From Auanema rhodensis (taxonomy: Eukaryota > Animalia > Nematoda): DNA of 64,000 bases. The position numbers were made by a program, and so were the translations under genes. Below the pieces are notes generated by a model, which saw only the letters and a program-made list of their open reading frames with translations, was not told the origin of the DNA and ran no database searches. Positions within the stretch are counted from its first letter, which is position 1, and each line of letters opens with the position of its first letter. Positions 12,040 to 56,564 of the stretch are shown piece after piece. The stretch covers positions 12,462,001-12,526,000 of the forward strand of contig OZ059896.1 in assembly GCA_964057225.1 (NCBI GenBank), written 5' to 3'.

Positions 12040-12367
12040 AATTAGTATGTAACGCAGTTATTAATGTTCATTAAATTAACCCTCGATATGTGTCGCGTTG
12101 AGGTCAGCGCAACTGTTTGTTAATCTTATGATATAAACATTCAATGTGTGCTCGATAGAGATTTTGTATTGGTTTGTATAGTAAAATAAAATGTTAAACT
12201 ATTCTAATATGTTCATCTTTTCTTTTATTTTGAGAAGTTCACTTGTTACAATAAATTTGACAGCTTATGCGCCCCCAAAAATATGTTTTTAGCAGCTGAC
12301 GCCGTCCAAAGTATACTTTTGACAGCTGTTTGGGGGCGTAGTTATTAAATTTTACACGGCTCTCTAG
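12040..12367 (-). mobile_element. Shrunken Maverick terminal remnant; second copy at ~42460-42779
   Basis: TTTTAGCAGCTGACGCC...TTTGGGGGCGTAGTTA...GGCTCTCT matches the Maverick terminus. GGTCAGCGCAACTGTTT matches the reverse complement of 21717-21733. Confidence 0.75.
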
Positions 12368-18700: not shown

Positions 18701-20218
18701 CTTTCCTGTTTTTTCCTGTAATGGTTCGAACCACGACGAACGACCTTTGAACTGCTGCAACTAAATAAGGCCTTTCGAATGAAGGTGTTAGTTTGTTTCG
18801 TGTAGATATGACTTTTATCACTTTTATCATAACTAACTCATTAACCTGAATTTATTTATTTCTTATTTCTATTTCGTGTATTGTACCGTTGTTCATTTTT
18901 CTCTGTGCATGTTTCAATTCTATCTTTTACTATAGCAGAAGTGCTTTCCTTTTGTATTAGTGATCTATTGACAAAACCTTCTGTAGAATTGACTGGTTCT
19001 TCAGTTTGGAGATTATTTCCAGGCAAGTAGTGGTCAATAGGAAGTCTTGCATCCCGACCAAATAATACTATGTATGGACTAATAGATGTTGATGAGTTTG
19101 GTAACGTCTTGATTGCAAACATAACTTTGGGTAGGTGTAAATCCCAGTTAGTTTGTTGTTCATTCACGAATGAAATGACAGCTTTTTCTAAAGTTTTATG
19201 AAGTCTTTCAAATTGTCCATCAGCATTTTAATAGTATGGCAGTGTAGTAGTGTATTTAATTCTAAATTGCTTACACATAGCTTGAAATTCAGAAGACTAA
19301 AAGCTACTACCATTATCGGTCACCATACTCATTGGTGGTCCATATATGAAAACAAATCTAATTACAAACCTTTTTCTTGCTACTGTCGTGTCGTGTGGAT
19401 TAATTGTTTGGATAGACTATAAGCAGAAAAAAATTTCCAGGGACAATGTCAGAGCACATGGATACAGTGGAGGCTGTTCGGAATGAACAGCTACAAAATC
19501 TTTTTGCTGATTTAGTCGGTAGATGTAAGGCGCTTTGATTTTCAATAACCAAATTTGAAATCAAAACTCATTACTCAGGCTCAAATTTTAAGAAACACAA
19601 ATTCGAGCAGTAAAGTAAAGTTAATGATATAACGACTTTTTTGCACTTTTTATGTTCGATATATATATATGTTCTTCTCTTTTTTTTTTTTTCGGGCAAA
19701 ACCGAATGCTTCGATCAATATTTTAAAAATAACGTAAAGAGATAAAAGAATTCATTATCATAACACAACAAAATACAGTATTAGTTATACGCTGACAAAT
19801 AATACAAAAAAAAGAAAAATAATAAGATAGAGATGTATTGAGTTAAGACTAACATAGTTTTAAAGCAACCGATCTGGGTTAGTGCAAAAATAAATTCAAG
19901 TTATATGTATCTCATTTCGTAGGCATGGCTGGTTTAGGCTTTAGTCATTTGAATAGCTTGCACATGTTTAGCATATGTTTGCAGATTTGACATTGAAACA
20001 ATATATATACCAATTGAAATAAATTGAAAAAAACTAAGTTCTATGCTGCTTTATAGTGTAGTATAGAATTATTTTACAGGACTTAAGTTTTGGACAAAAA
20101 CTGTAGTAAATATGTGAAACATATATCGGCCAAAGCAAAAAGCTAAACTTGAAAATTCCGCCTTAAATTAAATTCGACTCGAGGCCGCTTGGATTCATTT
20201 TAATATATTATTTACGTC

Positions 20219-20790
20219 AGTAGAGAGCCATGCCGAATTTACTAACCACGCCCCCAAACAGTTGCTAAAAACATACTTTTGAGGGCGTCAGCTGCTGAAA
20301 ACATACTTTTGGGGGCGTCAGCTGTCAAAATCATATTTTCGGCGTCAGCTGTCAAAAATATACTTTTCCTCCCGAGGCAGGCTCTCGAGCCTGCGCATGG
20401 ATCAAAATGCATGATTTTTTTTTTTAAATTATTTTTTAATGTATTATTTTAAATGATTTTTTATTATTTATATATTTGTTAATTGTATTTGTAAATATTT
20501 TTAAAATTATTTCTTTTTAAATGTATTTTTAATATTTATATATGTTTTAAATATTATTATTTAATTATTTCTTTTTAAATATATTTTATATATTTTTAAA
20601 ATATTATTAAAGTTATCTCCTTTTAAATGTATTTTTAATATTTATACATTTGAATAAACTTTTTAATATATATTGTTTTTGTTTTAATTTATAAAATTTG
20701 AATATATATATAAAAGCTAATTAATATGTTCACCGTACCTCTTATGGGTTAATCAATGGAACTCATATCGAAGGTTAATTCGATAAGATA
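20219..20790 (+). repeat. Maverick left terminal inverted repeat; imperfect homology continues to about 21460
   Basis: The first ~200 bp are near-identical to the reverse complement of ~37020-37224. An AT-rich imperfect stretch follows, then 20721-20790 matches 36590-36660, and 21270-21460 matches 36370-36560. Confidence 0.9.
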
Positions 20791-21941
20791 TATTTTATAT
20801 ATTTATTTTTTAATTTTATTTGTTTATATTGTTTATAGTTTGTGTTTATTATAGTTTATAATTATTAATTTAACTTTTAAAAAGTTTGTTGTTTATCTAG
20901 GCGAACCATTTTGTTCACCGTACCTCTTATGGGTAAATCAATGGAACACATATCGAAAGTTAATTCGATAAGAACGATATGAAATACAAAAGTTAATGGA
21001 ACACATATCGAAGGTTAATTCGATAAGATCGTTAAAACAGGTGCCCTGACCCACACAAAAACCACATGGCAAACGTTTTGTTCATTAAAATATGATAAAT
21101 AGCTGTACACCACATGTACCAAGTTGCCTAATATTTTCAAATTACATGAAAGAATAGTTTAAAGAAATTGTTTTAAATTTTATATTAGTATATTCTAATA
21201 TACTAACTCAATAAAACACATATCGAAGGTTAATTCGATAGGATTCACAAACAATTGTGTTGTTTCCAATGGAACACATATCGAAGATTAATTCGATAAG
21301 ATCGTTAAAACAGGTGCGCTGCCCCACACATGTACCACATGGCAAAAGTTTTGTTCATAAAAATATGATAAATAGCTGTACAGCACAAGTACCCATAACG
21401 CTAAAGAATACTTACTATGCCAAGGGGTCATGGGTATATAGTTTTTAGTATCAAAAATGTTAATGGAACACATATCGAATATCAATTCGATAAGATTGGT
21501 GAAACAGATACGTTGACCCACAATAAACCAAATGGCAAAGCACTTGTTCATTAAAGTATAACAAATAGCTGTATAGCATATGCATCAAGATTTCTAATAT
21601 TCTCAAATTACGTGGAAAGAAGAGTATATAGAAAAAGTTTTAGTGTGTATATTACTAATATTCTAATACCCTAACTCAAAGAACACATATCGAAGATTAA
21701 TTCGATAAGATTGTTGAAACAGTTGCGCTGACCACAACAATACATGCGTATTTATTAACAGCGGATTGGCAACTGCCACTGTTGACAGCTGTAATATGAT
21801 ACAATGTTGAGTGTTGGCAACATTGTTACGTGACAATAAAACAACTGACTGTTCTTGCAATGAAGTGTAATATAAATGTGTAAAATGAAATATGGATAGC
21901 TACCTCTCAGAGTTTGCATAATTTTATTCTGACAAGATACA

Positions 21942-24900
21942 ATGGCTGCTAACAGGTTGTGTTTTTTCCTATCTTTTTTTTTTTAATTAAAATATTTATT
22001 TTCAGTTATAAGCGTGTATGTGAAGATTTGGGGTTCGATTATGAGGAAATTTATCAACTCAGGTAATTTAACAATATTTTTAAAATATACATCTTTGTTT
22101 TTTTTTTTAGTAAGCGCATAAAACTTACCGAGAGTGGTGGTGTTGAGCTGTGTGACCCCGCAATAACCGCTTCCAATAGTGGTCCCTCGTCATCGAGGGT
22201 TATTGAAGTTATCACCTTGGATGACAGCGATAATGAGTAAGCTATCATATAATGAAAAAGCATGAAATTTTTTTTTTTCAGAGAATGGAATCCCGAGATG
22301 CCATCAACTAGTGGAGAACAATTAGGAGGCGGTTCATCCTTCAACGATGTTTGTCAAATAAAGGTACGAGCTTTTAACCTTTTTTTTTCATGTTACAATT
22401 CTTTTCACTCTATATCTTTTATTTGATTACATATCTTGAGCAATTTTGAATTCTGCCATCTATTTTTAAACAAATCATCATACATTTGGTGGCTTTTTGA
22501 AAAATAAAATAAAATCTTATCCCAAATCCATGCCATAATATCATTTATTAAATTTTTATTCATTAAAATACAATTAAATTTAAATATTTTGATGCTCAAA
22601 AACTGACACATTTAAATATTTTGTATTTTTCAAATCATTTCACTCCATCTCTTTTATTTAATTTCATATTTTAAACAATTTTAAATTTTTACCACTACTT
22701 CATAATTTTTATTTATTAAACTTTTTAATCATTAAATTAGACTTAAATTTAAATATTTTGATGCGCAAAAACAGAAACATTTAAATATTTTGTTTTTTCT
22801 AAACCATTTCACTCCATTTATTTTAAACAATTTTATATTTCTACCACTATTTCATAATTTCATTTTTTGAATTTTTGATCATTAAAAAAAAAAACATTTA
22901 AATTTCAATATTGTGATGCTCAAAAACTGAAACATGTAATTGATTTATATTTTCTAAGCCATTTCACTTCATCTCTTTTATTTAATCACATATCTTGAAC
23001 AAATTTAAATTTCTATCACTTTTTCATAATTTCGTTTATTAAATTTTTAATCACTAAAAAACATTTAAATTTCAATATTGTGATGCTCAAAAACTGAAAC
23101 ATTTTAATATTTTGTAATTTTTAAACCATTTCACTTCATCTCTTTTATTTATATATATTTTAAACAATTTTATAATTCTACTATTATTTAATTTTTATTT
23201 ATTAAATTTTTAAACATTAAAAAAAAATTGATGCTCAAAAACTGAAACATTTAAATATTTTGTATTTTTCTAATCGTTTTGAAACAAACTAAACATATAT
23301 TTGAAAACATTTCAATTAAATAAAAAATAACGACTATAACAAACAAAGAGACATAATAATTTTAAGCAAAAGATGAAACAATTCATATATATTCTTAAAA
23401 CTATATTTTTTTAAACTTTTAAAAATAAAAATTAAAAAAAAGCATGTAAACTGTTATAAATGTTGTTTATTATAGTGGTCACACCGGCGCATAAAACGCA
23501 CCGGTCGTTTTACCAACGTGGTCGTTCGATCGCTCACGTTCCCACACTTGGAAAATGTTGATGAACCAATGCATGTTATCATGCCGCGGTTATTCAACGA
23601 ATTCCTTGATCGTTGTCTTGCTGAAAGCGGTGTGCCTGATAAGCAAAAAGCCTTATTTTGTTTATCAATTGAGCACCCTTCCTTTGAAAAGGGCTCCATA
23701 TTTATGGACTTTCGTAGAAGGGAGCATCTGGATGGCGTAGTAATTATGAATGCCATCAGCAAGGTGCAGCAATCAAAACGAGAGGCTGTGATCAGCCAGG
23801 CAATGAATATTGAAATGTATGTGTTTGATGAAAGGCCAGCGCAGCCAAGCCTGATGCCGGGTGAAGGTAGAGTCGGGTATTATTTTGACCCCGAACTCAA
23901 AATACCTGGAACCATTGCCAACACTGACTCACATTGTCTGGCTAGATCAGCAGTTGTGGGAATGTGAAAAGCTGACGAGCTGGCCACTGAAGATGGCGAT
24001 GAGAAGCGAAGGCTGCAAAACCTTCGTCGCAATTACATCTTATTGCCAAATCAGCCACACCATATCAATTTATTAAATAGGTGTGGTATTTCTGTAGATT
24101 TACCAAATTATTATTTAATTCATTTAAACATTATTGCCAGCTGTAATACAAACTATAAGTTTGTAGTATATGCTAGACCGCCTGGACAGCGTATGTACAC
24201 TATCCAGAAAATGTTTAATGAAGCGGCTAGCAAATTGGTAACACTAGGTTACCGAAATAATCACTATGATTGTATTACAGCTGGTAGTCGTTCGAAAATT
24301 TTTGATGGTATTATATGTCAACACTGTAAGTTATCTTACAATACAGTGTTGCACAGATGTAAAGCCAAATGTAAAAAATGCCACACCTATAATTGTAATG
24401 CGATGGGGAATGTGGTTGAGAGTAGCGTGAGGTGTGATAGTTGTAGAGTTTTGTTTAAAACTCAACAATGCTTCGATAGGCATTTGCGAAAAGCCTGCCG
24501 AAAATTCAAGGTATTTTGTGAAAATTTAAAGTTGTACATAACAAGCTTAAATTCAGACATGTGTGGCGTGTGATCACTATCACATGGTCCGTGCTGATAG
24601 ACCGCACAATTGCAATGAAAAATTCTGCAAAAAGTGCGGTCAGACAAAGCCTGAAGAGCACTCTTGTTGTTGGGTTCCACCTAACGACAAGAAGAAGGCT
24701 CAACTAAAAAAGAAGCAAGAAAAGTTCAAGGTTTGTTTTTAACATCTTTACAAGTGTAATGCTTACTTGTTTAAGATTATATTTTATGACTTTGAAACAG
24801 TTGTGTTAAAAAACGGCACAAATGTTCATGAATATGCAGATGAACAATGGCCCAATATGGTTGTGTATAACAAATTTCGTGAAAGTTGTATAGATGCCAA

Positions 24901-27705
24901 TTCCTGTGAAAAATGCACAACCAAGGAGGGCCATTTTGGGTACCAACAAGGTGATAGTGAATGGTCTGTAACAGATCGTTTCCTTGATTGGTTACTCAAC
25001 TTTTCTGAGAATGATAATGCAATTGTGATTGCGCATAACGGATCGCGCTTTGACATACATTTCTTGGTGTCTAGGCTGATAAATCGTGGAATATATCCTG
25101 ACCCCATTTTAAATGGGACCAAGATTATTAGCATGGTTGTCAAGCCTTTAAGAGGTCAAAACTTTAACCATTTATGTTTTAAAGATAGTTATTTACTAGT
25201 GCCTTTACCCTTATCAGCGTTACCCAAGACATTTGGTGTACCTGATATGAGTAAAAGACAATTCCCATACCTCTTTAACCACCCAATAAATTATGGCAAA
25301 GTGCTACCATCCTTGCCACCAAAGCATTACTATTGTACTGCTAGAATGAAAGCAGAAGACCTTGCTTCATTCAATATTTGGTATGAGGAGCGTAATCAAA
25401 GTGTGTTTGATTTTGATGAGGAGCTTCTGGAATATTGTAGGACAGATGTCCGTATTTTAACCAACTGTATGAAAGTGTACATGAAGTTGGCCACCGCCAC
25501 CACTGGCTGGAATCCTGTCATACAATGTATGACATTCGCCAGTTTCTCTTTATTCCAGGCAAGTTTTTTAAAATACAAGCATTTTCAAAACTAGTATATT
25601 ACAGTTGAAAATGAACCACATTAAAGAGAACCAAGTGGGTATTCTGCCTGAGACTGGTTATTATGCCGGCCAGAAGCAGAGTATAATTGCCATAAAATAC
25701 ATAAAATGGTTAGAACACGGATTAGGCCGCCCATTAATGCATAAGCTTAATGGTGGTGAATTTGTTGTGCGAGTAGATGGCCAACGCTATCTACTTGATG
25801 CTTATGACAGTGTGGCTAATCACGGCTATGAGGTGAGTAATTTGTAATAAATGTAAAAAATGAAAAATTTTGTAGTTTAATGGCTGTATTTATCATGGTT
25901 GCCCCCAGTGCACCAACAAGACTGCTATTGCACCAGGCAGAAATGGTGAAACAATGGAAGAGGTAAGCAATACTTTTTTTAATCATTTTAAGCTGAAACA
26001 TTTAGGTTTATGAAAAAACCATGAAAAGGCTGGAGGCTATTCAAAGCCAGGGCATTAGTGTAACCACTGTGTGGGAACACGAAATTACTGCTCAAATGTC
26101 ATCAAATGATCAAATGGCAAATTTTATGAAGAACAATGAGGTTGTAATTCGATTGGCACTTCGAGATGCCTTCACCGGCGGCCGAACTCAAACATATAAG
26201 CTTCTGGCCCAAGCTTCGGATAGATACTCACTAGAGTATGTGGACTTTTGTTCACTTTATCCATATGTAACGGCATTTGATGCCTATTACCCTGTGGGTA
26301 ATCCTAAAGTGATTACTGAGGGCTTTGAGAGTTTTGAGGCATGCTGCCCATACAAGGGCCTTATGAAATGTGACGTGCTTGCACCCACAAATTTGTTGTA
26401 TCCTGTATTAGGAACACGCATAGGCGGTAAATTAATTTTTACAAACTGCCGCACATGTGCAAACAGTGGCAAAAATGTAACATGCCCGCACCAAGATGAT
26501 GAAGACGCTCGAAAGCTGCATCTGACTGTAACGCATGTAGAGCTCGAATGTGTCATACAGCGTGGCTACAAAGTGCTTCATGTTTATGAGGTTTGGCACT
26601 GGGATGAATGGCAGAAAGGAGGCCTATTCAAGGATTTTGTACAAAAGTACATAAAAATTAAGCAAGAGGCATCGGGCTGGCCTAAGCCAAATATGACAGA
26701 GGCTGAAAAGGTATGTGTCATGAAAAGTATGGCATTAAATAACATTTTACAGCTAAAATATCTCCAAGAGCACGAGGAGAACACTGGTGTTGCTCTGGAG
26801 AGCAGCAAAATTGAAAAGAATGCGGCCATGCGTAGCATTGCCAAACTACAGCTGAATAGGTATGTAAACTTTTAAAAATAAAAATTTACAAATTTGCTTA
26901 TAGTGTATGGGGTAAAATGGGTCAAAGACCGGATAAAGCCCAAACCAAGATTATTGGTGTTGAGGATCCTGAAATTGGTAGGATCATAACTGATCCTGCA
27001 AGGGAACTCACGGGCTTCAAAATTGTGGACGATGTGGCGTACTGTACAACAGTGCCAGAAGACTCACACTTGGCACCAGCGCCGTTTACAAATGTAGCCA
27101 TAGCGGCTTATACAACCGCTCATGCAAGGCTACTATTGTATAAGGCAATGGAAAAAATTGGAAAGAACTTGGTGTATACAGGTAATTTTATACTTTGTAT
27201 ACAATTTAAACGTACATCATTTAGACACCGATTCTCTAATTTATTTAAAATGCCTCGATCAGCCTGATCCAATTGAGGATATGAAGGGTGAATGGTTAGG
27301 TAAACTAACCTCAGAAATACCCGATGGATGGTCAATGACCAAATTTGTTTCACCAGCTGCAAAAGTTTATAGTTATGAGCTAGTAAATGCAGCTGGCCAG
27401 GTCAAGTATATCACCAAGGCAAAGGGAGTGGTAAGTATAAAAATATATTATTGAGAAACTTTTTAAAATTACAGACGCTGGACCACACGGCAGCCACCGT
27501 GGTAAACTATCAAAGTATGGAACGATTGGTTCGAGGACTCGTGATGGATGGAGAAAAATTGGTTTTAAAAACCAAAACAACGTTATTAAAGAGGCAGCTT
27601 GGTGCCATATCCACGATGGACATGACAAAGAGTACCAAGGTCGTAATGGATAAACTTTGTTATCTAGACGATTTTAGTACTTTACCCTATGGTTATTGTG
27701 AATAA
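21942..27705 (+). CDS. pPolB: Protein-primed family B DNA polymerase (pPolB), 14 exons, ~1370 codons, one in-frame TGA at 23965-23967
   Basis: Exons: 21942-21955, 22006-22062, 22111-22236, 22282-22363, 23476-24510, 24557-24730, 24776-25558, 25605-25832, 25876-25962, 26006-26710, 26753-26859, 26904-27181, 27225-27430, 27475-27705. They sum to 4113 nt in one frame. Splicing rebuilds the motifs K|IIFYDFET, YE|FNGCIYHGCPQC, KLQLNS|VWGK and YTD|TDS. Also present: HNGSRFD, YCRTDV, DFCSLYP and an OTU-like DSHC...HYD. The 5' four exons are less certain than the rest. Confidence 0.92.
22560..23280 (+). repeat. AT-rich degenerate tandem repeats (~150-170 bp units) inside pPolB intron 4 (22364-23475)
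   Basis: The core GATGCTCAAAAACTGAAACATTTAAATATTTTGT recurs near 22590, 22760, 22915, 23082 and 23230. Confidence 0.8.
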
Positions 27706-27843
27706 TTTTCAATATATTTGAATTTATAAATTTTATTATTGCGTGTATATTTGTATATGGTTGTATTTATAGATTTTTATGTATAGTTGTATTAATAAAT
27801 TTTATTCTTCTCATCAAATGTTTTAAAGAGTTTATTACATACA

Positions 27844-29178
27844 TTACAAACTGGTATCAATATATGGAGCACGATTGTTGTCAATTGAAAGAATAGAGTC
27901 ATATTCTGCATAAACAATAGCATATAAACCCTCTTGCGGCGTTTGTTGACCAAATTCCAATTTCAGGGCCACATTACCTTGTCGTATAACATCAAATAAC
28001 TCGGACGAGTGTACAGTCGGTGAAATATCAAATACAAAAAATGTGAACCCAGCTTTATACATTGCTGGTGTAATACCATTGGATGAATCTGTACGACCAA
28101 GGCCCAAACCTTCCAACATGTCAATATATGCTGTGGCATAGGAAGAACGCCATTCTAAATTATAAGGGCGGGTAGGTATTACCCGATTGTTGAGCGTCAA
28201 GTATATATTTTTCAATTCAAACGGTTTAAAGTTGAATGGCGAATGTTTAAAAGTACCATTATAAGCGTGTGCGCCGACAAGACCTACTACAACACGTTTC
28301 GGTGTATGCGACGTGAATAATATGTTATTGGGTGAATCCAAACGACCTCCTTCTATGAAATAAGATCGCATTTTCACTGACGTCATGGGGTAGTGTATTC
28401 GTTCCTTTACAAGTTTATCTTCTATAGCCATAGCTAATCCAGCGTTTAGATCAAACTCTTGAATAAGCAAGTGCACATCGTTGATATCTATTTTCAGGTT
28501 TGGAAACTCCTCCATCATTGCAGCATCCTTGCTTTCATTATTCCATCCAAGTGTGTCAATTAAGAAATTATCACGGTTTGGATATGCAGTTAGCTCCATT
28601 TTTGAATAGTTTACAAACAGTCGTTCCTGATTGAATAAGTCGATACTGATGGGAGCAGCCATCTCACACAATATGCCATTTTTAACAAGCCCTTGTCGCG
28701 CTCTAAATCCAGGACTGGCTGCATTATCTATATATCTATCCGCATAATACCCTGATATGGCAAGTTTGCTCTCTTTAACATCGTTGCTATACATTAGAAT
28801 ATTCTCAATATATGTTTTGTAGGCATGATTTACGGTAGAGTCATACACGCTAACATCACCAATTTTTAAATGATACGAGTGTATCAAACTGGCTGCAAAT
28901 TGTTGGCATGGTGCAAAAACAAGGTTGTCTAGTACTGGATCACCGTTTGTGGTTACAATTTTGAATTTTACATTCAACCAACACCTTCTCAGATTAAGAA
29001 ATGATTTGGAATTTTGGGCTATAACAAATTACCATGGTCCTTGAGGAAGAAAAGTATTTTTTAAAGGAACTTGTACAGTACGAGTGGATTCAACACCTAA
29101 TGCCGACGCCGGTATGTCACTATAATTAATATTAGGTAAAAGGGCTTGTGCTGATTTTGAATCTATCAATTTAGCCAT
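27844..29178 (-). CDS. MCP: Major capsid protein (double jelly-roll); premature TAA at 29029-29031
   Basis: ATG at 29178 gives MAKLIDSKS...QGPW*FVIA, in frame with the 377-aa ORF. Polinton MCP-like motifs: DLFNQERL, PKRVVVGLV, PFNFKPF, FFVFDISP, IVYAEYD. Confidence 0.9.
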
Positions 29179-29631
29179 TTAAATACGATACGACCGCTCA
29201 CGAGTTATGCACAGACGCTTATGAGGTTTTGTGGTTTTGCGTCGTCGCCGCTTGCCCAAGCCGGTAAGATCTCGTATAGCCTGCCGGCCGGCTGTTTTAA
29301 GAGTTTGCTTGATATTATCGCCCTTGAGCACCCCATCAACAATTTCATTGCTAGTTTTTAGCAACTGGCCGCCAAGAGGTGAATTTACAACTGGACTATT
29401 GCTTACAGCACTGGATAATGCATTCCTTCCAGCATTGATGAGATTTTGGGCTATAGGTGATTGAATAATGCGAGGTAAAAACGATGCCAAAGTTGCCAGT
29501 ATACCACCCAGGCCATGACCTCTCTGCATACCACGTTTAAACATCATTCCACTAAATGGCGCCCCACCCATTTGTTGATTCAAAAGTGTTGTCCATTGAA
29601 TTGAGTTCAAGTCTAGAAGGAGGTGTGGCAT
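29179..29631 (-). CDS. Putative virion core or membrane-lytic precursor protein (adenovirus core/protein VI-like)
   Basis: QMGG|A, QRGH|G and LTGL|G resemble adenain cleavage sites. It has an amphipathic GLGGILATLASFLPRII segment and a basic KRRRRK tail. Its stop directly abuts the MCP ATG. Confidence 0.65.
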   Translation of the reverse strand: MPHLLLDLNSIQWTTLLNQQMGGAPFSGMMFKRGMQRGHGLGGILATLASFLPRIIQSPIAQNLINAGRNALSSAVSNSPVVNSPLGGQLLKTSNEIVDGVLKGDNIKQTLKTAGRQAIRDLTGLGKRRRRKTTKPHKRLCITRERSYRI

Positions 29632-29681
29632 ATTGAACCGCACGTGCGCAATACAAAAGTTACACTAGATCATTTTACTAA

Positions 29682-30137
29682 ATGTATTCGTCTGAAATAG
29701 CGTCACTATTGCGATCTGTCCGCATCACTCGAAAACTATTCCTCGGTGTATTTAGCGCCGATACTCTACCCAAAACACGTCGAAAGAACTTTGCACTTGT
29801 TGTAAATACTGACACACACGATAAACCGGGCACACATTGGCAAGTCATCTTTGTACGTAATGATCAAGCCTACTTTTTCTGTAGCTTGGGTTATAAAATG
29901 AACAAGTACATTCGTCATTATCTGGCGAAATATAAAAATATAAAAGTTAATACTTGCAAACCACAACGCATAATTGAATACACTTGTGGTGGTTATGCAA
30001 TATTTGTAATACTAATGTTGTCAGCTGGTAATACATTTGAAAGCATTTGTTCATTTTTTAAACTATTACAAAACGATGATGTCTTTATTAAAGCTTTTAT
30101 GCATAAAGTATTCGACTATAAATTATCTAGCATATGA
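29682..30137 (+). CDS. PRO: Adenain-like cysteine maturation protease
   Basis: VNTDTHDKPGTHW (His) and PQRIIEYTCGGY (Gln/Cys) motifs typical of Polinton proteases. Confidence 0.92.
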   Translation: MYSSEIASLLRSVRITRKLFLGVFSADTLPKTRRKNFALVVNTDTHDKPGTHWQVIFVRNDQAYFFCSLGYKMNKYIRHYLAKYKNIKVNTCKPQRIIEYTCGGYAIFVILMLSAGNTFESICSFFKLLQNDDVFIKAFMHKVFDYKLSSI

Positions 30138-30395
30138 TCAACTTTGCCATTAAAACGTCACCTGCTACATTAGGTGGTCAGTTATGAATATTCCCTGTCA
30201 CTGTGAATTATGTATAAGATACACGTTGGAACAATCTGTGCCAACACCCCTGTACAAAAAGATTTTGAAACGTATTTCAGTGCCATTCATTAAAGGAATA
30301 TCTCTGGGACTACGCTTTTGTACTACACTAGTCATTATTCCACTCATTATATAAAAGTGAGTTGACTGTGTGTGGTTGTTTTTTATTTTCCTCTA

Positions 30396-30860
30396 ATGGA
30401 ACTTTTATGTAACAAGTATTGTGTTACGTGCAAGGAAATATTTTCATCAGTCAAGCATTTTAGTGATCACATATTGAAAAGACATGACGGGATTCAACCC
30501 GTATGTAACAGTTATATCAGCAATGCTGACTTTATTCAAAAATATGGACATTTGGATGGTGTTCGTAGACGTTTGTGCCCTTATTGTAGTGAAACTTTTG
30601 GAACAAGATTCATTTGTCAGCGTCATATTCGGCGTCTTCATAATAGTAATGGAACGAATGGTAAAGATGGTGATGGAAATGATACCAGCGAACCCTCTGA
30701 AAAAACTGAGGAGTTTGTACAGTCAACCGAACCAAAACGATGCCGCTGCAATAGTAACCGAGAATATTCACAACACGAGCCGCGCATCGAACAAAACGGC
30801 GCTGAACTACCTTTTAAACCTTCGAAAATCGTAATGTGGTCTTGTATAACTGTTGAATAA
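30396..30860 (+). CDS. C2H2 zinc-finger protein with two fingers (accessory gene)
   Basis: CVTCKEIFSSVKHFSDHILKRH and CPYCSETFGTRFICQRHIRRLH. ATG at 30396, TATA-like TATATAAAA near 30348, AATAAA at the stop. Confidence 0.75.
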   Translation: MELLCNKYCVTCKEIFSSVKHFSDHILKRHDGIQPVCNSYISNADFIQKYGHLDGVRRRLCPYCSETFGTRFICQRHIRRLHNSNGTNGKDGDGNDTSEPSEKTEEFVQSTEPKRCRCNSNREYSQHEPRIEQNGAELPFKPSKIVMWSCITVE

Positions 30861-30865
30861 AACAT

Positions 30866-31723
30866 TTATTTCACATTTTTAACATGTAATGTAACAACTG
30901 TAGAACCATAATTAAATTGCATAGGGCGACCAAATTCATCTAAAATTTCAATACGTATAGTATCGAGTGTTTGCTTAGTGATTGGTACATAACGAATAGG
31001 ATTAAATGTTTTGACAATCATTTTACCAAATTCAGTGGGAGGTGGTACAGGTAAACATGCAAGTAAATTAGCTTTCACATTACCGAGAATGGAATATTCT
31101 ACAATATCACAATAGATATACATTGTATTAATGTTATTTGAAAAATCAATGGGGCGCCTGGCTATTAACGTGTCGTTGATAATTTTATTCTCAAAGCCAA
31201 GAAAATATGCGAGAGCATCACCGAGTGTTGCATTCAATAATAGCCGCTTACTTGTTACAAACTCTATGCGTTGTAGTGTTTTGTTAAACCGAAACGTGGC
31301 GTCTGCCAGCATTTCCTTGACAAGTTTAGCCTCAGCTTGTCGATTATTATACCACTTTTTCACATCTTCATCTTTATCTATCAAACCCTTTATACGTGCT
31401 TCTTCCTCAGCTCCAAGAGGTTTAGTGCTGCTAGCAATAAATTGTTCTTTTCCAGCATTGATTCCGCGTATTATTTCATCACCATTTGCATAGTTACCTT
31501 TGGGCAAGTGCAGAATAAACTTTCTGTTGGAAAAACGTAGTGTATAAGAAAGATTTTCTTGTACATTTAATATCGAACACGGAAAAATTATGTCTGTCAG
31601 CCCGATGCAATATCTGTTATTGCATAGCCTTAATGTTTCAGGTAACCTGGTAAGAAACACTGATGAGGTATTACTTTTTTCAGAGTCAACTGATGACGGC
31701 AAAGTAATGTAAAAATCATCCAT
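30866..31723 (-). CDS. mCP: Minor capsid (penton) protein
   Basis: N-terminal MDDFYITLPS, then YIYCDIVE...LL and C-terminal IRIEILDEFGRPMQFNYGSTVVTLH, the Polinton mCP pattern. Confidence 0.85.
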   Translation of the reverse strand: MDDFYITLPSSVDSEKSNTSSVFLTRLPETLRLCNNRYCIGLTDIIFPCSILNVQENLSYTLRFSNRKFILHLPKGNYANGDEIIRGINAGKEQFIASSTKPLGAEEEARIKGLIDKDEDVKKWYNNRQAEAKLVKEMLADATFRFNKTLQRIEFVTSKRLLLNATLGDALAYFLGFENKIINDTLIARRPIDFSNNINTMYIYCDIVEYSILGNVKANLLACLPVPPPTEFGKMIVKTFNPIRYVPITKQTLDTIRIEILDEFGRPMQFNYGSTVVTLHVKNVK

Positions 31724-31802
31724 CACAGACCACCACCTGATGCGTGCACACTAGTATAAATGAAATCATTTGCATTATAGGTACATTTACGAGTGGTTGA
31801 TT

Positions 31803-32450
31803 ATGGTTTTCAGCTTCAAACTACCCAGTCAGACAACTGTAATAGGGGCAACGCAATGTGGTAAAACTACCCTTATAAAACGTATATGTGAAAATACTGA
31901 AAAGTTTTTCAACGTCCCCATTGATAGAATATTCTGGTTCAGTCAATGTGGAGCATCGTCAGGTGTTCCATTAAATGATGAGCGTTTAATAGTTATTCAA
32001 GGACCACCTGATCCGGATATAATAAAAGAACAAAAGGGAATGAACACCATACTAGTGCTGGATGATTTGATGAATTTTTTCTCATCGAATAAAGCGGCTA
32101 AAGAATTATTCAACAACCTTTTTACAGTGTGGGCACATCACTGGAATTTGGCAGTGTTTAATCTTGTGCAAGCTGCATTTCAGCTAGACAGGACCAGTCG
32201 AATTAATAGTACATATATAATACTGATGAAAAGTCATTCGGATATATTACAAATACGTAATTGTCTGCAACAATTATTTGGCCCCCGCTTTAAAAATGCT
32301 CTAGAAGCATATGATGATGCAATGTCTACACCCTATAGTCATTTACTGATTGACAACCATCCTTTAACAAATGAGAAACAGCGTATACTATCAGATATAA
32401 CAGCGGAGCACCCTATTGTTTATGTAGCCAGAAATATATTCAGTGTTTAA
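31803..32450 (+). CDS. A32/FtsK-like DNA packaging ATPase
   Basis: Walker A GATQCGKT, Walker B ILVLDDL, plus HHWN, RINSTYI and YSHLLID. Confidence 0.92.
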   Translation: MVFSFKLPSQTTVIGATQCGKTTLIKRICENTEKFFNVPIDRIFWFSQCGASSGVPLNDERLIVIQGPPDPDIIKEQKGMNTILVLDDLMNFFSSNKAAKELFNNLFTVWAHHWNLAVFNLVQAAFQLDRTSRINSTYIILMKSHSDILQIRNCLQQLFGPRFKNALEAYDDAMSTPYSHLLIDNHPLTNEKQRILSDITAEHPIVYVARNIFSV

Positions 32451-32462
32451 TGTGCATGTTCA

Positions 32463-32771
32463 ATGAGTGGTCGTGTTTTGTCAAATTACAACTTTTTATC
32501 TTCTTGTGCCAAAACCCCTTGTTCTGTTTCCTCATTTTCTTTTTCACAAATTGAAATTATTGTTGAAATTGTATTTAATATTGTGAAAAAAAATAATTTT
32601 CTCTTAACTAACAAGGAATATAAAACCCTTTTGCCCATATCCTCATTATTACGTCAAATAGCTTTGATACGCACACCCGAAAAGGCTAAAACTTTATTGG
32701 CAACGATTTCACACAAACCATTGAAAACAATAGTTTCATGTGGAATTGCTTATTTTGGTTTTAAAAGATGA
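32463..32771 (+). CDS. Small conserved Polinton protein of unknown function
   Basis: 102-aa intact ORF tightly packed downstream of the ATPase. IVEIVFNIVK resembles the small conserved ORF of Polintons. Confidence 0.7.
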   Translation: MSGRVLSNYNFLSSCAKTPCSVSSFSFSQIEIIVEIVFNIVKKNNFLLTNKEYKTLLPISSLLRQIALIRTPEKAKTLLATISHKPLKTIVSCGIAYFGFKR

Positions 32772-33505
32772 AACTCAATCATAAATATCGTCTAATCCCT
32801 GTGGATGATGAAACGCTGAATATAGACAAGTTTGATGCTGAATTGAAGCTCTTACGAGAGAATAAATCTATACCCAATTATAAAAAGGCTGAACTATACG
32901 AAGACTTGATTACCCGTCTCAAAAACTATAGAGAAAGCATAGATGCTCCTATATCAGTACAAGTGGAAAATGCTGATCCACCATTATTGCCAGAATACAA
33001 GCTGCCACGAAAGTATAACGATCTGTGGGAAAGATTTCCAGAGGTGCGTACAAACAAAAATAACCAACTTGTGATTAATAATAAGCCCGTACCAAACACA
33101 AATATTACAAAAATTTTGGATTTTGTACTGGATAAAACAAAAACGGAACCCAATGGATTCTCAGTATTAGCCAAATTCTTAGCCAGTAATGGGGTCTCTA
33201 GCCCTAACAAGAAGGCAAAAAATGTAGAGCCTGCCGTCAGTAACAAGGATTCAGTTGATCCCGTGCCTACATCCACATCGGCTGTCACAGACTTGGATGC
33301 TACTATTAATATATTACCTAGAACACCACGTCATCGTAAGGCTGTTATTCGATATTCACCCTCTCCGCGTCGTACATTCAAATCCAAAGCTATACATAAA
33401 AAGGCAAAACCCGCTGACACTGGTGAATCATATTACACACCTCAGGCGGGAGAAACACAGAATGGCAAAGGCCGTAAACGATTCTACATTAGATTATGGA
33501 AGTAA
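32768..33505 (+). CDS. Conserved Polinton protein of unknown function upstream of the integrase
   Basis: 245-aa ORF overlapping both neighbours (ATGA overlap at the 5' end). Basic low-complexity tail ending QNGK|GRKRFYIRLWK. Confidence 0.75.
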   Translation: MKLNHKYRLIPVDDETLNIDKFDAELKLLRENKSIPNYKKAELYEDLITRLKNYRESIDAPISVQVENADPPLLPEYKLPRKYNDLWERFPEVRTNKNNQLVINNKPVPNTNITKILDFVLDKTKTEPNGFSVLAKFLASNGVSSPNKKAKNVEPAVSNKDSVDPVPTSTSAVTDLDATINILPRTPRHRKAVIRYSPSPRRTFKSKAIHKKAKPADTGESYYTPQAGETQNGKGRKRFYIRLWK

Positions 33506-34529
33506 TGTTTTGGAGAACATTTATTATAATATTAAGCATCCAGCTTCTTATACGTCTGCCAAAAATCTATTATTGGAAGCGCGAAAGCATGGCATCGCAA
33601 AAGCACAAGTTGAAAGTTTTTTGCAAGACTCTGAAACTTTTACACGTCATAAACCAACCAGACTGCATATGCAGACTAAAAAGACTAGAGGCTGTGGTCG
33701 ATTCCTAACAATGCAAGCAGATTTGGTTGATATGCAAAAATATAAAAAATCAAATGACGGCTATGCTTACATGTTGACCATGATTGATGTTTATACACGC
33801 ATGTTATATGTTAGGCCTTTGAAAACTAAAGGTGGTTTAGAGGTTGCTACTGCATTTGAAAATGTATTCAAGGATTTTATACCAATCCAACTAATAACGG
33901 ATAACGGTGCAGAGTTTTATAATAGTCATTGTGAAAAACTATTCAAAAAATTTGCCATACTGCATGGATCAACAAGTTCACCACAAAAAGCGGCAATGGT
34001 GGAGCGAGCAAATAGAACTTTAAAAACGCGCATGATGAAATATCTCTATTACAAGAATAATCATCGATGGATTGATATACTAGATGACTTGGTCGAAGGA
34101 ATAAACAAATCTTATAATCGGTCGATTAAAATGCGCCCCGTAGATGTTACAGCAAATATATTCGTTGAAGAATATGCACCAGCTGTTCGCAACCGATTCA
34201 AAATTGGTGATAATGTTCGCATAAGCAAGAACAGGCGTACTTTTGAAAAAAGTTACAAGTCTGGATATACAATGGAACTATTCACAATTGATGAGATTGT
34301 AGCCGGGAACCCAACCGTGTATAAACTTGTAGATTATAATGGTGAACGTATAAAGGGTATATTCTATGAGCCTGAACTTGTGTTGGCTACTAATAAAAGC
34401 AACCAGTACTATATTGAGAAAGTTTTGAAAGAGCGTACACGAAATGGTAAACGCCAAGTATTTGTAAAATGGAGTGGCTATCCCGACAACTTTAATGAAT
34501 GGATAAATGCAGAAAATTTAAATGTATAA
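33462..34529 (+). CDS. INT: Maverick c-integrase (DDE) with C-terminal chromodomain
   Basis: IYYNIKHPASY, QADLVD, TDNGAEF, VERANRTLK. Chromodomain YYIEKVLK...VKWSGYPDNFNEWI. First in-frame ATG at 33462. Confidence 0.93.
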   Translation: MAKAVNDSTLDYGSNVLENIYYNIKHPASYTSAKNLLLEARKHGIAKAQVESFLQDSETFTRHKPTRLHMQTKKTRGCGRFLTMQADLVDMQKYKKSNDGYAYMLTMIDVYTRMLYVRPLKTKGGLEVATAFENVFKDFIPIQLITDNGAEFYNSHCEKLFKKFAILHGSTSSPQKAAMVERANRTLKTRMMKYLYYKNNHRWIDILDDLVEGINKSYNRSIKMRPVDVTANIFVEEYAPAVRNRFKIGDNVRISKNRRTFEKSYKSGYTMELFTIDEIVAGNPTVYKLVDYNGERIKGIFYEPELVLATNKSNQYYIEKVLKERTRNGKRQVFVKWSGYPDNFNEWINAENLNV

Positions 34530-34575
34530 TTTTTCACTGTTGTTGTAAACAATTGTATTAATAATAATAAATGAT

Positions 34576-35423
34576 TTATTTGATCAATCGTTCATATTGT
34601 AACAATAAAAAACCAGCAAAACATAAAAGCCAAGACAATGATATAACCTATAATTATAAACTGATTAATATTTAAATTTTCAATGCTTACCAGTTGGTTT
34701 GAGAGTCGGCTGTTGATGGATAATTTCAAACTTCAAGAGCTGGAAAAAAAAATGTTACGGCTAAGAAAATTTAAATATAACATAACAAAATCAACCAACT
34801 GTCCATTAAACAGTTTGTGCTTGTTGTAGTCAAAACGATGGATCAAAACGGATAAGCATATTCAAGTTGAGCGCCTGTTGACTTAATTTAAAGTAGAACA
34901 CATTCTGCTTATAACCAAAAGACTTGACAGTTGACTCATCAGTATAAATGGCAATGTAACCCATATTATTCAACAATTGTTTTGATGACATGCTAGAATA
35001 AGAACGCATCTGTAAAAGAAAAAATAATAATTAGAATTAATAATTTTATAATCTTACATTGATTGTTGAATTTTCAGGTTTATAATGACGGAAAACTTTT
35101 AAAAGCCCTAAGGCATCATTCCTCGCTCTACACTTGACACAGAGGCTGAAACAGTGGTACTCGTCTACGACTTGCAATGTATCTCTACAAGTTTTGCAGA
35201 GACATATTGGTCTCATAACTACAGGCTGTTGTGGAGAGCTATCCTTTGAGATTTGTACCTGCTTTTTTGGTGTGTCTAAACAAAAAATAATTGATAACAA
35301 AAATAAAACCTTACCAAAGAATGTGGCAGCAAAGTTGGGTCCTGGTGTGGGTGGTCGTGGAACATCCGGTTCCGGTGTCGAAGGTACAATATTCTCTACA
35401 TCAACAAGAGCGGAACGCTTCAT
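34576..35423 (-). CDS. Spliced accessory gene of unknown function: Pro-rich, Cys-rich, with a hydrophobic C-terminal exon; 5' end and exon chain uncertain
   Basis: Canonical introns on the minus strand at 35314-35276 (GTAAGG..TTTAG) and 35057-35010 (GTAAGA..TTTTACAG), plus a GTAAGC..TATAG intron near 34690-34649. CLCKTC...CFSLCVKC. The last exon reads GYIIVLAFMFCWFLLLQYERLIK*. A TGA near 34830 interrupts the chain. Confidence 0.5.
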
Positions 35424-35519
35424 GTTTGTAGCCCAATTGGAGGCTTTTCCTAAACAACAACGAACTTTTACGTCTAGGGTCCAAGTAGAGTAGAGGAAAG
35501 TCCTAGCAGCAGTCTGTTG

Positions 35520-35645
35520 ACGTTGGATCAGATCGTCGACTTGTTGGCAGAGGTGGATCGGCGAGAAGATTTGGTGGCGGAGCTGGATCGGAGAGTAGAC
35601 TTGTTGACAGAGCTGGATCGTAGAGTCGACTTGTTGGCGGAGCTG
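35520..35645. repeat. 30-bp tandem repeat, about 4 copies
   Basis: Units like GAGCTGGATCGGAGAGTAGACTTGTTGACA repeat with a 30-nt period. Confidence 0.85.
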
Positions 35646-36369
35646 AAATGCAAATTTCGGTCTAAAAAATTTTGCCACCTTTTATACAAACTTCGTTGTA
35701 AAGCTATACCCACTCCGCCTCTTTCACAAAACAGTTGACTGCTGTATGCGGCTTTTCTATTTGTTATATATTACAACAAATGTATGCATTTATACATTAA
35801 TTAGCAGTTTGTTGCGCAAACAGCTGCCAAATGCGCTAAAATACACCGATTGCGCCAACAGTTGCCGGATTAACAACCTGTAAACTATCCGCTTATTAAT
35901 TACTTGTTACATCATTCGATTTCGTAAATACAAATATTTAACAATAATTCAACTCATTTGTGACAAGTCCCTATACAATAACAACTGTCATCCAAAATTG
36001 TGGAAGATTACAATAGGATCGTTTAATATTGTATTCATATTCTTATTATAACAGCTGTGGTACACTCTTACTTTTATAGTTTAGGAAACACTAATTCAAA
36101 ATGTTGGATCCTACTGAGGAAACGCAGGATTGTTGCGAAAAACAGACTTGTACACATCCGATTACAAGTACAACATTTCCAGACACTTTGTAAAAAAAGA
36201 AACTCTTACAAAATGTTAACACATGTTCTAATTTTAAATGAAAATTTATTGTTCAATAAATATATTACGAAACATTTATTCTATTCTTGAACATAGTTAT
36301 GAAATACATTAGCTATCAGAACATTTATAAACTATTAGGGCTACAACAACAATTACTTTAAAGTAACAT

Positions 36370-37224
36370 TTTTGATGTTAAAAAGTTTGAAAATATTCGT
36401 ATATACTCATGACCCCTTGGCATAGTAAGTATTCTTTAGCGTTTTGGGTACATGTGGTGTACAGCTATTTATCATATTTTTATGAACACAACTTTTGCCA
36501 TGTGGTACATGTGTAGTGCACCTGTTTTAACGATCTTATCGAATTAACCTTCGATATGTGTTTCATTAAATTTAGTTTAAATATTTATTACTTCTTATCG
36601 AATTAACCTTCGATATGAGTTCCATTGATTAACCCATAAGAGGTACGGTGAACATATTGATTACCTTTTAAAAATATTTAAATAAATAAAAAACAATATA
36701 TATGAGAAATAATTTATTCAGTTTTAAAGATACAATTAAAAAATATATAAATATTTTATTCTTATTCAGTTTTAAAGATACAATAAAAAAATATATAAAT
36801 ATTAAAATACATTCAAAAAGAAATATTATTAAAAATATATTTAAAAAAAAACAATTAAATAATAATATTTACAAATACAATTTAAAATATATATAAATAT
36901 TAAAAATACATTTAAAAAGAAATAAGTTTAAAAATATTTACAAATACAATTAACAAATATATAAATAATAAAAGTTCATTTAAAATAATACATTAAAAAA
37001 TAATTTTAAAAATGATTTTAAAAAAAAATCATGCATTTTGATCCATGCGCAGGCTCGAGAGCCTGCCTCGGGAGGAAAAGTATATTTTTGACAGCTGACG
37101 CCGAAAATATGATTTTGACAGCTGACGCCCCCAAAAGTATGTTTTTAGCAGCTGACGCCCTCAAAAGTATGTTTTTAGCAACTGTTTGGGGGCGTGGTTA
37201 GTAAATTCGACATGGCTCTCTACT
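36370..37224 (-). repeat. Maverick right terminal inverted repeat
   Basis: Reverse complement of the left end, including the GGCGTCAGCTG repeats and the GCAGGCTC-NN-GAGCCTGC hairpin. Confidence 0.9.
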
Positions 37225-37693
37225 TACGTCGCACACACCAAAACGTGTTGTAGTAGGTGTTGTCGGCGCACACGCTTATAATGGTACTTTCAAGCATTCG
37301 CCATTCAACTTAAAACCGTTTGATTTCAAAAATATATGAATACTTGACACTCAACAATAGAGGAATACCTACCCAACTTTATAAATCAGAATGGCGATCT
37401 TCCTATACCACAGCATATATTGACATGTTGGAAGGTTTGGTTGTACAGAGTCATTCAATGGTATTACACCAGTAATGTATAAAGCTGGTTTCACATTTTT
37501 TGTATTTGATATTTCTCCTACTGTGCATTCGTCGAAGTTATTTGATGTTATACGACAAGGTAATGTAGCCTTTAAATTGGAATTTGGTCAACAAACGCCG
37601 CAACAGGGCTTATAGGCTATTGTTTATGCAGAGTATGACTCTATTCTTTCCATTGACAACAATCGTGCTCCTTATATTGATACCAGTTTGTAA
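37225..37693 (+). pseudogene. 3' part of the MCP gene of an older Maverick; its 5' continuation is at 20181-20218
   Basis: Homologous to the reverse complement of 27844-28315 (TSHTPKRVVVG...IDTSL*), with frameshifts. Confidence 0.9.
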
Positions 37694-37744
37694 TGTATAT
37701 AATAATTTCTTTTTTTTAATTTCATACTTTCAAAGTTCACCACT

Positions 37745-38400
37745 GACGCAGCCGTGTGGTCCAACGTCTGACAACTATAGAATTATTTAACAAGTCAAAA
37801 CTCGTACTTACCACTCCCTTTGCCTTTGTTACATATTTTACATCACCAGCTGCATTTACTAGTTCATAGCTATAAACGTTGGCCGCTGGTGATGGTTTTT
37901 TCATAAACCTAAATTTTTCAAATTAAAATATTCATAAAAATCATAATTATTTCTTCCATTGTTTCACCATTTCTGCGTGCTATAGCAGTCTTGTTGGTGC
38001 CCCGGGGAGAACCATGGTGAATACAGCCATTAATCTACAAAATTTTGCATTTTTTACAGTTATTACAAATTACTCACCTCATAGCCATGATTGGCAACGC
38101 TGTCATAATCATCAAGTAGATAGTGTTGGCCATCTACTCTCACTGCAAATTCGCCACCATTCAGCTTATGCATCAATGAGCGGCCCAACCCTTGTTCTAG
38201 CCATATTATATACTTTAAGGCTTATATACTCTGCTTTGTGATAATGATCACAATTTTCAAATGTCTGAATTTAATCTTATAAAATTTTATATATTTTTTT
38301 CTAAATTACATTCAACATTCCACATGTTTTTTTAATATGCCTGTCAAAGCATTGACGAGTTTGAAACAAAGCTCTTCAATTATCACATCTTATGCTACTT
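37745..38400 (-). pseudogene. Deleted pPolB remnants of the older Maverick
   Basis: Colinear pieces of exons 14/13, 10/9/8 and 6/5, joined by large deletions, with intron boundaries retained. Confidence 0.8.
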
Positions 38401-38415
38401 TCAACCTTTCAACCA

Positions 38416-56500: not shown

Positions 56501-56564
56501 AATAATTTGAAATGTTCAAGCAGTTTATGCAGAAAAGACTTTAATAACAACACGAAATTCGGAT

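What the first reader, a model, noticed from the sequence alone, without database searches (positions are those of the whole stretch)
20181..37693. Maverick inserted into the capsid gene of an older Maverick of its own family
Seen: joining the left flank (GAGGCCGCTTGGATTCA...TATTATTTACGTC) to the right flank (GCACACACCAAAACGTGTTGTAGTAGG...) with one TSD copy removed gives a continuous homologue of the element's own MCP (GRLDS...ILFTSHTPKRVVVG). This confirms the boundaries independently and shows at least two waves of activity. Inference: the chromodomain integrase may favour heterochromatin already marked by relatives, or this is a trap or safe-harbour locus.
Basis: partly seen in the sequence, partly recalled or inferred. 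Interest (0 to 1): 0.7.

Follow-up and report, generated by a model that had tools for sequence, protein, structure and literature searches.

The report
Maverick nested in shattered older relative
A 17-kb virus-like transposon (a Maverick) sits inside a scrap of the coat-protein gene of a related, heavily broken copy, in a stretch of likely nematode DNA packed with transposon debris; the nesting is real but likely ordinary pile-up, and nothing here shows that these elements seek out their relatives.

Summary
The nesting is confirmed. A Maverick at 20219-37224 (17,006 bp, 6-bp target duplication TACGTC, terminal repeats 198/200 identical) interrupts a capsid-gene piece of a relative. Aligned separately to the element's own capsid gene, the left flank ends and the right flank begins on the same 6 bases. 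The host is not a whole Maverick. Only about 35 bp of capsid gene lie to the left. The right side (37225-39720) is a 2.5-kb patchwork of six blocks at 77-91% identity, with deletions and an inversion. Capsid dN/dS of 0.24 shows a sister subfamily, later decayed. The window outside the element is transposon debris, 6.6% of it Maverick-derived, including a further, duplicated terminal fragment. The integrase chromodomain keeps its aromatic cage, but so do 119 of 120 homologues, so it explains nothing special here. Targeting and trap hypotheses are untested: no assembly was held, and none of 4 laid runs shows this locus. Same-family nests and repeated Polinton insertions at one nematode locus are published. 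A side finding: the polymerase gene has nine candidate 42-46-nt introns.

The parts
19534..20183 (.). Unrelated dispersed repeat (SINE-like; tRNA-like head judged by eye) that abuts the capsid scrap through a 3-bp overlap; context only
   Evidence: 70-80% to copies at 12365-13199, 42778-43604, 52866-53407; ARAGORN finds no tRNA gene
20181..20212 (+). Left scrap of the older copy's capsid gene (first 3 bases shared with the repeat upstream)
   Evidence: aligns to own capsid 28349-28316
20213..20218 (+). Left target-site duplication, TACGTC
20219..20805 (+). Left terminal inverted repeat; outer 200 nt near-perfect, inner part AT-rich with indels
   Evidence: 198 of 200 identical to the right repeat
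23476..27705 (+). Protein-primed DNA polymerase B region, split by nine candidate 42-46-nt introns; an in-frame stop at 23965-23967 in the 5' part
   Evidence: Pfam DNA_pol_B_2 E 8e-21 and 7e-16; homologue blocks; intron table
27844..29178 (-). Major capsid gene of the inserted copy, 444 codons, in-frame stop at codon 50
   Evidence: fold
29179..29631 (-). 150-aa ORF with a basic C-terminus, unassigned
   Evidence: no Pfam family
29682..30137 (+). Adenain-like maturation protease
   Evidence: Pfam Peptidase_C5 E 8.7e-4, below the curated cut-off; beside the capsid gene in L001, L009, L010
30396..30860 (+). C2H2 zinc-finger ORF
   Evidence: weak Pfam hits below cut-off
30866..31723 (-). 285-aa ORF, probable minor capsid protein (inferred from position only)
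   Evidence: homologue upstream of the capsid gene in 7 of the 10 related loci longer than 3 kb; fold not tested
31803..32450 (+). Packaging-type ATPase (P-loop)
   Evidence: weak Pfam ATPase hits below cut-off; Walker A seen in the translation
33297..34529 (+). Retroviral-type integrase with C-terminal chromodomain, open frame
   Evidence: Pfam rve E 4e-9, Chromo E 5e-8; cage Y371/W392/Y395
36578..37224 (-). Right terminal inverted repeat
37225..37230 (+). Right target-site duplication, TACGTC
37231..37712 (+). 3' third of the older copy's capsid gene, with two indels and a stop
   Evidence: 91% to 28309-27825
37720..38406 (-). Three polymerase fragments of the older copy, in order, separated by deletions of about 0.3, 1.3 and 1.1 kb
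   Evidence: match 27522-27350, 26022-25674, 24584-24414
38416..39720 (+). Inverted block of the older copy (left-arm sequence and 5' polymerase region), with one internal deletion between tandem repeat units
   Evidence: matches 21900-22560 and 23025-23696 at 90-91%
12074..12366 (-). Terminal fragment of a third, more distant Maverick
   Evidence: 86% to the outer 110 nt of the terminal repeat, 70% to subterminal repeats
42479..42779 (-). Duplicate of that terminal fragment, inside a 96%-identical segmental copy (11793-14010 / 42204-44413)

Best explanation
A Maverick integrated, with a 6-bp target duplication, into a capsid-gene scrap of a sister-subfamily copy, likely by ordinary untargeted or weakly biased integration into a gene-poor, repeat-packed region where insertions are likely tolerated. 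Steps. (1) An earlier sister-subfamily Maverick was present at the site (shown by the nesting order). (2) It was cut down to 2.5 kb by deletions and an inversion (shown). The junctions carry 1-3-bp overlaps or short filler or duplicated bases, which suggests polymerase-theta end-joining (inferred). (3) The younger copy inserted through its integrase (duplication shown; enzyme inferred) and has since picked up about 1% terminal-repeat divergence and two in-frame stops. (4) The region also holds a third Maverick end and recent segmental duplications, so a same-family target was at hand by chance. Whether the host was shattered before or after the second insertion cannot be told.
For: Collinear flanks that overlap on exactly the duplicated 6 bp. 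Outside the element, 30,093 of 46,994 bp are repeated within the window. The ORFs scanned outside gave mariner/Tc1, gypsy-like and BEL/Pao families and no recognisable cellular gene. Maverick-derived DNA is 3,119 of 46,988 bp outside, 6.6%, so one hit is not rare after the fact. Capsid differences sit mostly at third codon positions (26 of 39); 18 amino-acid changes against 27.3 +/- 2.6 under neutrality, 5 of 5,000 simulations. Contigs in related runs lie closer to the relic than the inserted copy does (3 vs 8 differences over 37456-37564; 7 vs 10 over 37536-37705). Precedent: 15 Drosophila families form self-nests, and duplications shape dense regions (PMC1794594, passages). Several Polinton insertions, remnants and inversions occur at C. 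elegans eri-6/7 (PMC11414722, passages). No sequence-specific integration was found for the related EMALEs (PMC8547959, passages).
Against: Three separate Maverick arrivals in 64 kb is dense. The integrase chromodomain keeps all three cage aromatics and is closest to Rhino/HP1 chromodomains among solved structures (E 2.5e-8 to 5e-7). In 2 of 4 laid runs a contig joins a Maverick terminus to a point about 70 nt inside another terminal repeat, a possible second self-insertion. PMC1794594 also reports an excess of same-class nesting. Selective retention and targeting cannot be told apart from one locus.
Confidence: 0.62

Rival explanations
1. Chromatin-guided targeting: the integrase chromodomain binds methylated H3K9 or H3K27 and steers Mavericks into silenced repeat domains, so nesting in relatives is frequent.
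For: Cage residues Y371/W392/Y395 align with those of HP1 and Rhino. They are aromatic in 119 of 120 listed homologues at each of the three sites. Chromodomain retrotransposons favour heterochromatin (Gao et al. 2008, not read; seen as cited in PMC6839031 and PMC8547959 passages). Three Maverick arrivals in the window; a possible second self-insertion in runs X3 and X6.
Against: No binding or insertion-map data. The domain is family-wide, so it does not single out this event. EMALEs, whose integrase also has a chromodomain, had 15 sites in predicted genes, of 29 sites in all. Retention alone gives the same pattern.
Confidence: 0.25
2. Trap locus: the region is a small-RNA source kept by the host, in which scrambled pieces of many transposons provide silencing templates.
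For: Short pieces of many families lie in both orientations, and duplicates at 96-99.6% identity show recent turnover.
Against: No RNA data were examined. No strand bias was tested. None of 4 laid runs from related organisms shows the relic's junctions, so conservation of the locus is not shown. Fragmented nests also arise without function.
Confidence: 0.07
3. The flanks were copied from the inserted element itself (local inverted duplication, gap repair) or were joined by mis-assembly.
For: The flanks match the element in inverted orientation. The region is repetitive, and no read support for the junctions was obtained.
Against: Distance of 9-23% with dN/dS 0.09-0.24 in three of four coding blocks (0.61 in the fourth) cannot arise from a copy of this element. 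A perfect 6-bp duplication at the collinear point is not an assembler product.
Confidence: 0.03

Closest known systems
Nematode Mavericks/Polintons (Widen et al., bioRxiv 10.1101/2022.07.12.499685; Jeong et al., 10.1101/2023.08.22.554363; passages read)
   Same: Terminal inverted repeats, polymerase B, retroviral-type integrase, ATPase, adenoviral-type protease and capsid genes. Best named homologues are from Auanema, Caenorhabditis and Aphelenchus.
   Different: The C. plicata core genes are described as intronless; here the polymerase has nine candidate introns. No ORF near the 866-aa length of the MFUS-1 fusogen is in the ORF list (an intron-split version was not excluded). The passages returned held no mention of nesting.
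Polinton cluster at C. elegans eri-6/7 (PMC11414722, passages)
   Same: Several Polinton insertions at one locus, largely deleted remnants, inversions.
   Different: There a host gene is rearranged, with a phenotype. Here no host gene is seen, and one insertion is strictly nested with an intact target duplication.
Same-family self-nests in Drosophila beta-heterochromatin (PMC1794594, passages)
   Same: An element inserted in a member of its own family, in a dense region shaped by insertion plus duplication.
   Different: Those are mostly retrotransposons; this is a Maverick, and the outer copy is a shattered sister subfamily.
Chromodomain-bearing Ty3/gypsy retrotransposons (chromoviruses; Gao et al. 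2008, seen only as cited)
   Same: Integrase with a C-terminal chromodomain; location in a repeat-dense region.
   Different: Targeting is reported for them. For Mavericks it is only suggested in the passages seen, and it was not testable here.

Membership tests
Maverick/Polinton (inserted copy) | Terminal inverted repeats of several hundred bp with AG...CT ends | tested here: met
   about 590-650 bp; outer 200 nt 198/200 identical
Maverick/Polinton (inserted copy) | 6-bp target-site duplication | tested here: met
   TACGTC on both sides
Maverick/Polinton (inserted copy) | Protein-primed DNA polymerase B | tested here: met
   PF03175 above cut-off in two pieces
Maverick/Polinton (inserted copy) | Retroviral-type integrase | tested here: met
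   rve and Chromo above cut-off
Maverick/Polinton (inserted copy) | Double-jelly-roll major capsid protein | tested here: met
   mavirus, PBCV-1, iridovirus, Sputnik capsids, probability 1.0; this copy has an in-frame stop
Maverick/Polinton (inserted copy) | Packaging ATPase and adenain-like protease | tested here: inconclusive
   right families but below curated cut-offs; linkage to the capsid gene in related loci fits
Maverick/Polinton (inserted copy) | Minor capsid protein (single jelly roll) | not tested
   285-aa ORF is a positional candidate only
Nested insertion | Flanks collinear across the insertion, overlapping only on the duplicated target | tested here: met
Nested insertion | Empty allele exists or existed | tested here: inconclusive
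   none of 4 runs shows this locus; their capsid contigs continue past 37226 as ordinary uninterrupted family copies
Complete older Maverick as host | Own terminal repeats, target duplication and gene set around the insert | tested here: not met
   about 35 bp on the left, 2.5 kb of fragments on the right, no terminus of its own
Chromodomain-targeted integration (chromovirus-like) | Intact aromatic cage | tested here: met
Chromodomain-targeted integration (chromovirus-like) | Methyl-histone binding and enrichment of new insertions in marked chromatin | not testable with these tools
   no assembly, chromatin map or binding assay
Small-RNA trap locus | Source of uniquely mapping small RNAs; conserved position | not tested
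   no RNA run examined

The most novel reading that the evidence does not exclude
Maverick integrases read the H3K9-methyl mark on silenced Maverick relics through an HP1/Rhino-like chromodomain and so home onto their own dead relatives, building Maverick graveyards that spare host genes. This window (three arrivals in 64 kb, one strictly nested) and the terminus-inside-terminal-repeat contig in two related runs would be its footprint.
Probability: 0.12. Interest if true: 0.7.

Novelty: new member of a known kind. Interest (0 to 1): 0.27.

Why it matters
As it stands it is a clean boundary check and a dated layer cake. It fixes the ends of a nematode-type Maverick to the base, shows two sister subfamilies arriving at different times at one site, and shows how an old copy is ground down. 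If targeting were shown, it would give the first integration-site rule for Mavericks and a role for their conserved chromodomain, which the papers seen only suggest. The intron-rich polymerase matters for annotation, because intron-blind searches would call such copies broken.

Tried and rejected
Genome-wide count of insertions in relics: not possible, no assembly of this genome was held. Empty allele: 4 of the 11 runs found (none holds half of the words) were laid on 37036-38260. No listed contig bridges the relic's junctions. This shows neither presence nor absence of the locus (24 of 57 loose-end rows and 32 of 448 pieces were shown), and the left junction was not examined in reads. Terminal-repeat pattern scans found 0 matches in viral contigs and 0 in metagenome contigs. 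The capsid protein found 0 relatives among 29 candidate stretches in viral contigs. The alignment found 25 distant loci of 139 candidates in metagenomes (21-37% identity; 4 longer than 6 kb), too short to count target sites. A terminus-like 11-mer at 41756-41766 and its inverted duplicate were rejected as Maverick ends: score 24 against a shuffle maximum of 26-30; the place is part of the SINE-like repeat. No telomere arrays were found. A VSR or HNH insert in the polymerase: Pfam gave nothing for 3 homologues and 2 exons, so the polymerase class is open. Faster divergence inside introns held in 2 of 3 blocks only, and one intron's coordinates were a few bases off (corrected). Literature searches for Maverick-in-Maverick nesting and for targeting listed no paper whose title or abstract opening describes it. 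Subscription papers, including the original 2006-2007 descriptions and Gao 2008, were not seen, and bioRxiv supplements may hold such cases.
Full report
Boundaries. The element runs from 20219 to 37224 (17,006 bp). It begins AGTAG, ends CTACT, and is flanked by TACGTC at 20213-20218 and 37225-37230. The outer 200 nt of the terminal inverted repeats are 198/200 identical; further in, they are AT-rich and differ by indels.

Identity. Pfam finds rve and Chromo on 33228-34526 and DNA_pol_B_2 on two polymerase pieces above cut-off, and weak ATPase and Peptidase_C5 hits below cut-off. The capsid ORF has no Pfam family. Its model from an 11-sequence alignment (pLDDT 75) matches double-jelly-roll capsids of iridovirus, mavirus, PBCV-1 and Sputnik. 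The best named homologues are from nematodes (Auanema 65% for the capsid, Caenorhabditis for integrase and polymerase). With the 42-46-nt introns and a BEL element carrying a phlebovirus-G2-like envelope, the host is inferred to be a nematode. The inserted copy is itself damaged: an in-frame stop at codon 50 of 444 in the capsid frame and one at 23965-23967 in the 5' polymerase region. Integrase, ATPase, protease and the 285-aa ORF are open.

Nesting test. Each flank was aligned by itself to the element's own capsid gene. Right: 37225-37712 matches 28315-27825 at 441 of 484 bases. Left: 20181-20218 matches 28349-28310 at 31 of 38 bases with a 2-nt gap. No shuffle of 20,000 and no window 60-mer of 4,415 reaches that score at the predicted site; 1 of 300 shuffles does against the whole element. 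The two matches overlap on the 6 duplicated bases and nowhere else.

What the host is. It is not a whole Maverick. Left of the duplication only about 30 bases are capsid-derived; at 20183 a different dispersed repeat takes over through a 3-bp overlap. To the right, 37225-39720 is made of six blocks. They are the capsid 3' end, three polymerase pieces in the expected order with about 0.3, 1.3 and 1.1 kb missing between them, and then an inverted block of left-arm and 5' polymerase sequence with one internal deletion between tandem units. No terminus of the host copy is found. The junctions show 1-3-bp overlaps, a short filler and a short tandem duplication (by eye). This resembles the single-nucleotide homology and templated inserts of polymerase-theta end-joining in C. 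elegans (PMC4490562, passages). That paper reports mostly small deletions, so the link is an inference.

Older, or different? Both. In the capsid block 26 of 39 substitutions are at third positions; dS 0.23, dN 0.055. It has 18 amino-acid changes against 27.3 +/- 2.6 in a neutral simulation (5 of 5,000). Two short polymerase blocks give dN/dS 0.13 and 0.09 (52 and 26 codons); the 5' block gives 0.61 (71 codons). So much of the distance arose between two working lineages. Decay is also plain: stops in 3 of 4 blocks, and frameshifts. dN of 0.055-0.083 caps it at about 5-8%, against about 0.5% per end for the inserted copy (rough; it assumes identical repeats at insertion). In related runs some contigs lie nearer to the relic than the inserted copy does: 3 (and 10) versus 8 differences over 37456-37564, 7 versus 10 over 37536-37705, and 10-12 versus 14 over 38060-38187.

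Neighbourhood. Outside the element 30,093 of 46,994 bp are repeated within the window. There are 5-6-kb near-identical duplicates (99.2-99.6%) and many short pieces in both orientations. The ORFs scanned give mariner, Tc1, gypsy-like, MULE-like (weak) and BEL/Pao hits; several have no family, and none is a recognisable cellular gene. Two further Maverick terminal fragments, at 12074-12366 and 42479-42779, are 84-86% like the terminal repeat. They lie in a 96% duplicate pair, so they count as one more arrival. Maverick-derived DNA is 3,119 of 46,988 bp outside, 6.6%. One insertion into such a share, noticed after the fact, needs no targeting.

The chromodomain. Its closest solved relatives are Rhino and HP1-family chromodomains (42 sequences at E <= 0.01). 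The three cage positions are Y371, W392 and Y395. Among the best 120 of 400 integrase homologues, each position is aromatic in 119. Binding to methyl-lysine is therefore plausible, but the trait is family-wide. Chromodomain targeting is reported for retrotransposons (Gao 2008, seen only as cited). For the related EMALEs no sequence-specific integration was found, 18 of 29 sites were near repeats and 15 were in predicted genes.

Other genomes. Eleven runs of three coded organisms in three studies hold 0.20-0.48 of the words. In the four laid on 37036-38260, the family is present at high summed depth with shared variant sites. Listed contigs stop matching at the relic's block ends and go on in other sequence, and none bridges a relic junction. 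The locus and an empty allele therefore stay untested. In X3 and X6 one contig joins letters that read like the element's last 11 bases to a point about 70 nt inside another terminal repeat. This is either a second self-insertion or a terminal tandem duplication, in a region that holds a 30-bp tandem repeat. It is a weak hint, probably one inherited event.

Comparison. Same-family nests are known in Drosophila: 15 families, read as repeated bursts, with duplication shaping dense regions (PMC1794594, passages). Repeated Polinton insertion, remnants and inversions at one locus are known in C. elegans (PMC11414722, passages). My searches listed no paper devoted to Maverick-in-Maverick nesting, but they cover open papers only. 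Earlier unchecked notes of this scan describe Polinton derivatives inside Polintons in other genomes; these are leads, not support.

Side finding. The polymerase has nine candidate introns of 42-46 nt (eight GT-AG, one GC-AG; GC 16-29%). Homologue numbering runs on across several of them, for example residues 520 to 521 of P0136 across 25833-25875. Two fall in the catalytic motifs B and C (motifs recalled). Four lie in relic blocks: three keep both splice ends and one has lost its donor (by eye). Core genes of the C. plicata Maverick are described as intronless. Earlier notes of this scan report the same trait in other genomes. No RNA was examined.

Verdict. A real, well-bounded nesting; a new member of a known kind. 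Ordinary accumulation 0.62, chromatin-guided targeting 0.25, trap 0.07, artefact 0.03. Interest 0.27.

Noticed in passing
window 24511-27474: Nine candidate spliceosomal introns of 42-46 nt in the Maverick polymerase (one GC-AG; two inside catalytic motifs), while capsid, integrase, ATPase and protease frames are unsplit. Three of four introns in the relic keep both splice ends.
   Followed up: partly
window 12074-12366 and 42479-42779: A terminal fragment of a third Maverick lineage, duplicated within a 96% segmental copy and abutting the same SINE-like repeat family that flanks the nest on the left.
   Followed up: partly
runs X3 and X6, laid at window 37156: A contig joins a Maverick terminus to a point about 70 nt inside another terminal repeat: a possible second self-insertion or a terminal tandem duplication.
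   Followed up: no
runs X1, X3, X6, X9 (organisms A, B, C): The same Maverick variants and the same loose ends occur in runs labelled as three organisms in three studies: close relatives, co-sequenced material or horizontal spread.
   Followed up: no
window 5560-10880 and 13849-19831: A 99.2-99.6% identical duplicate of 5-6 kb holding an unassigned 234-248-aa ORF whose 5' part is tandemly repeated (periods 244 and 443 bp).
   Followed up: no
window 9357-11792, 40033-41436, 47042-51622: One repeat family (partly gypsy-integrase-like by eye) cut into 100-900-bp pieces and re-joined in both orientations many times; the whole region looks shattered and re-ligated.
   Followed up: no
window 56511-58309 and 52367-52936: BEL/Pao envelope gene with a phlebovirus G2 fusion domain (Pfam E 2e-18), and a 95% partial copy that interrupts or truncates a mariner.
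   Followed up: no
window 3932-5695: A cysteine-rich, envelope-like ORF pair without Pfam family, behind a weak gag hit.
   Followed up: no
window 20904-21750 and 22543-23224: Subterminal repeats of the Maverick: six spaced copies of a 73-nt unit, and a 167-169-bp tandem array whose unit number differs in the relic.
   Followed up: no
L022:6117-7526: A distant Maverick capsid gene in a metagenome contig appears in three pieces, and its ATPase in two, perhaps intron-split too.
   Followed up: no
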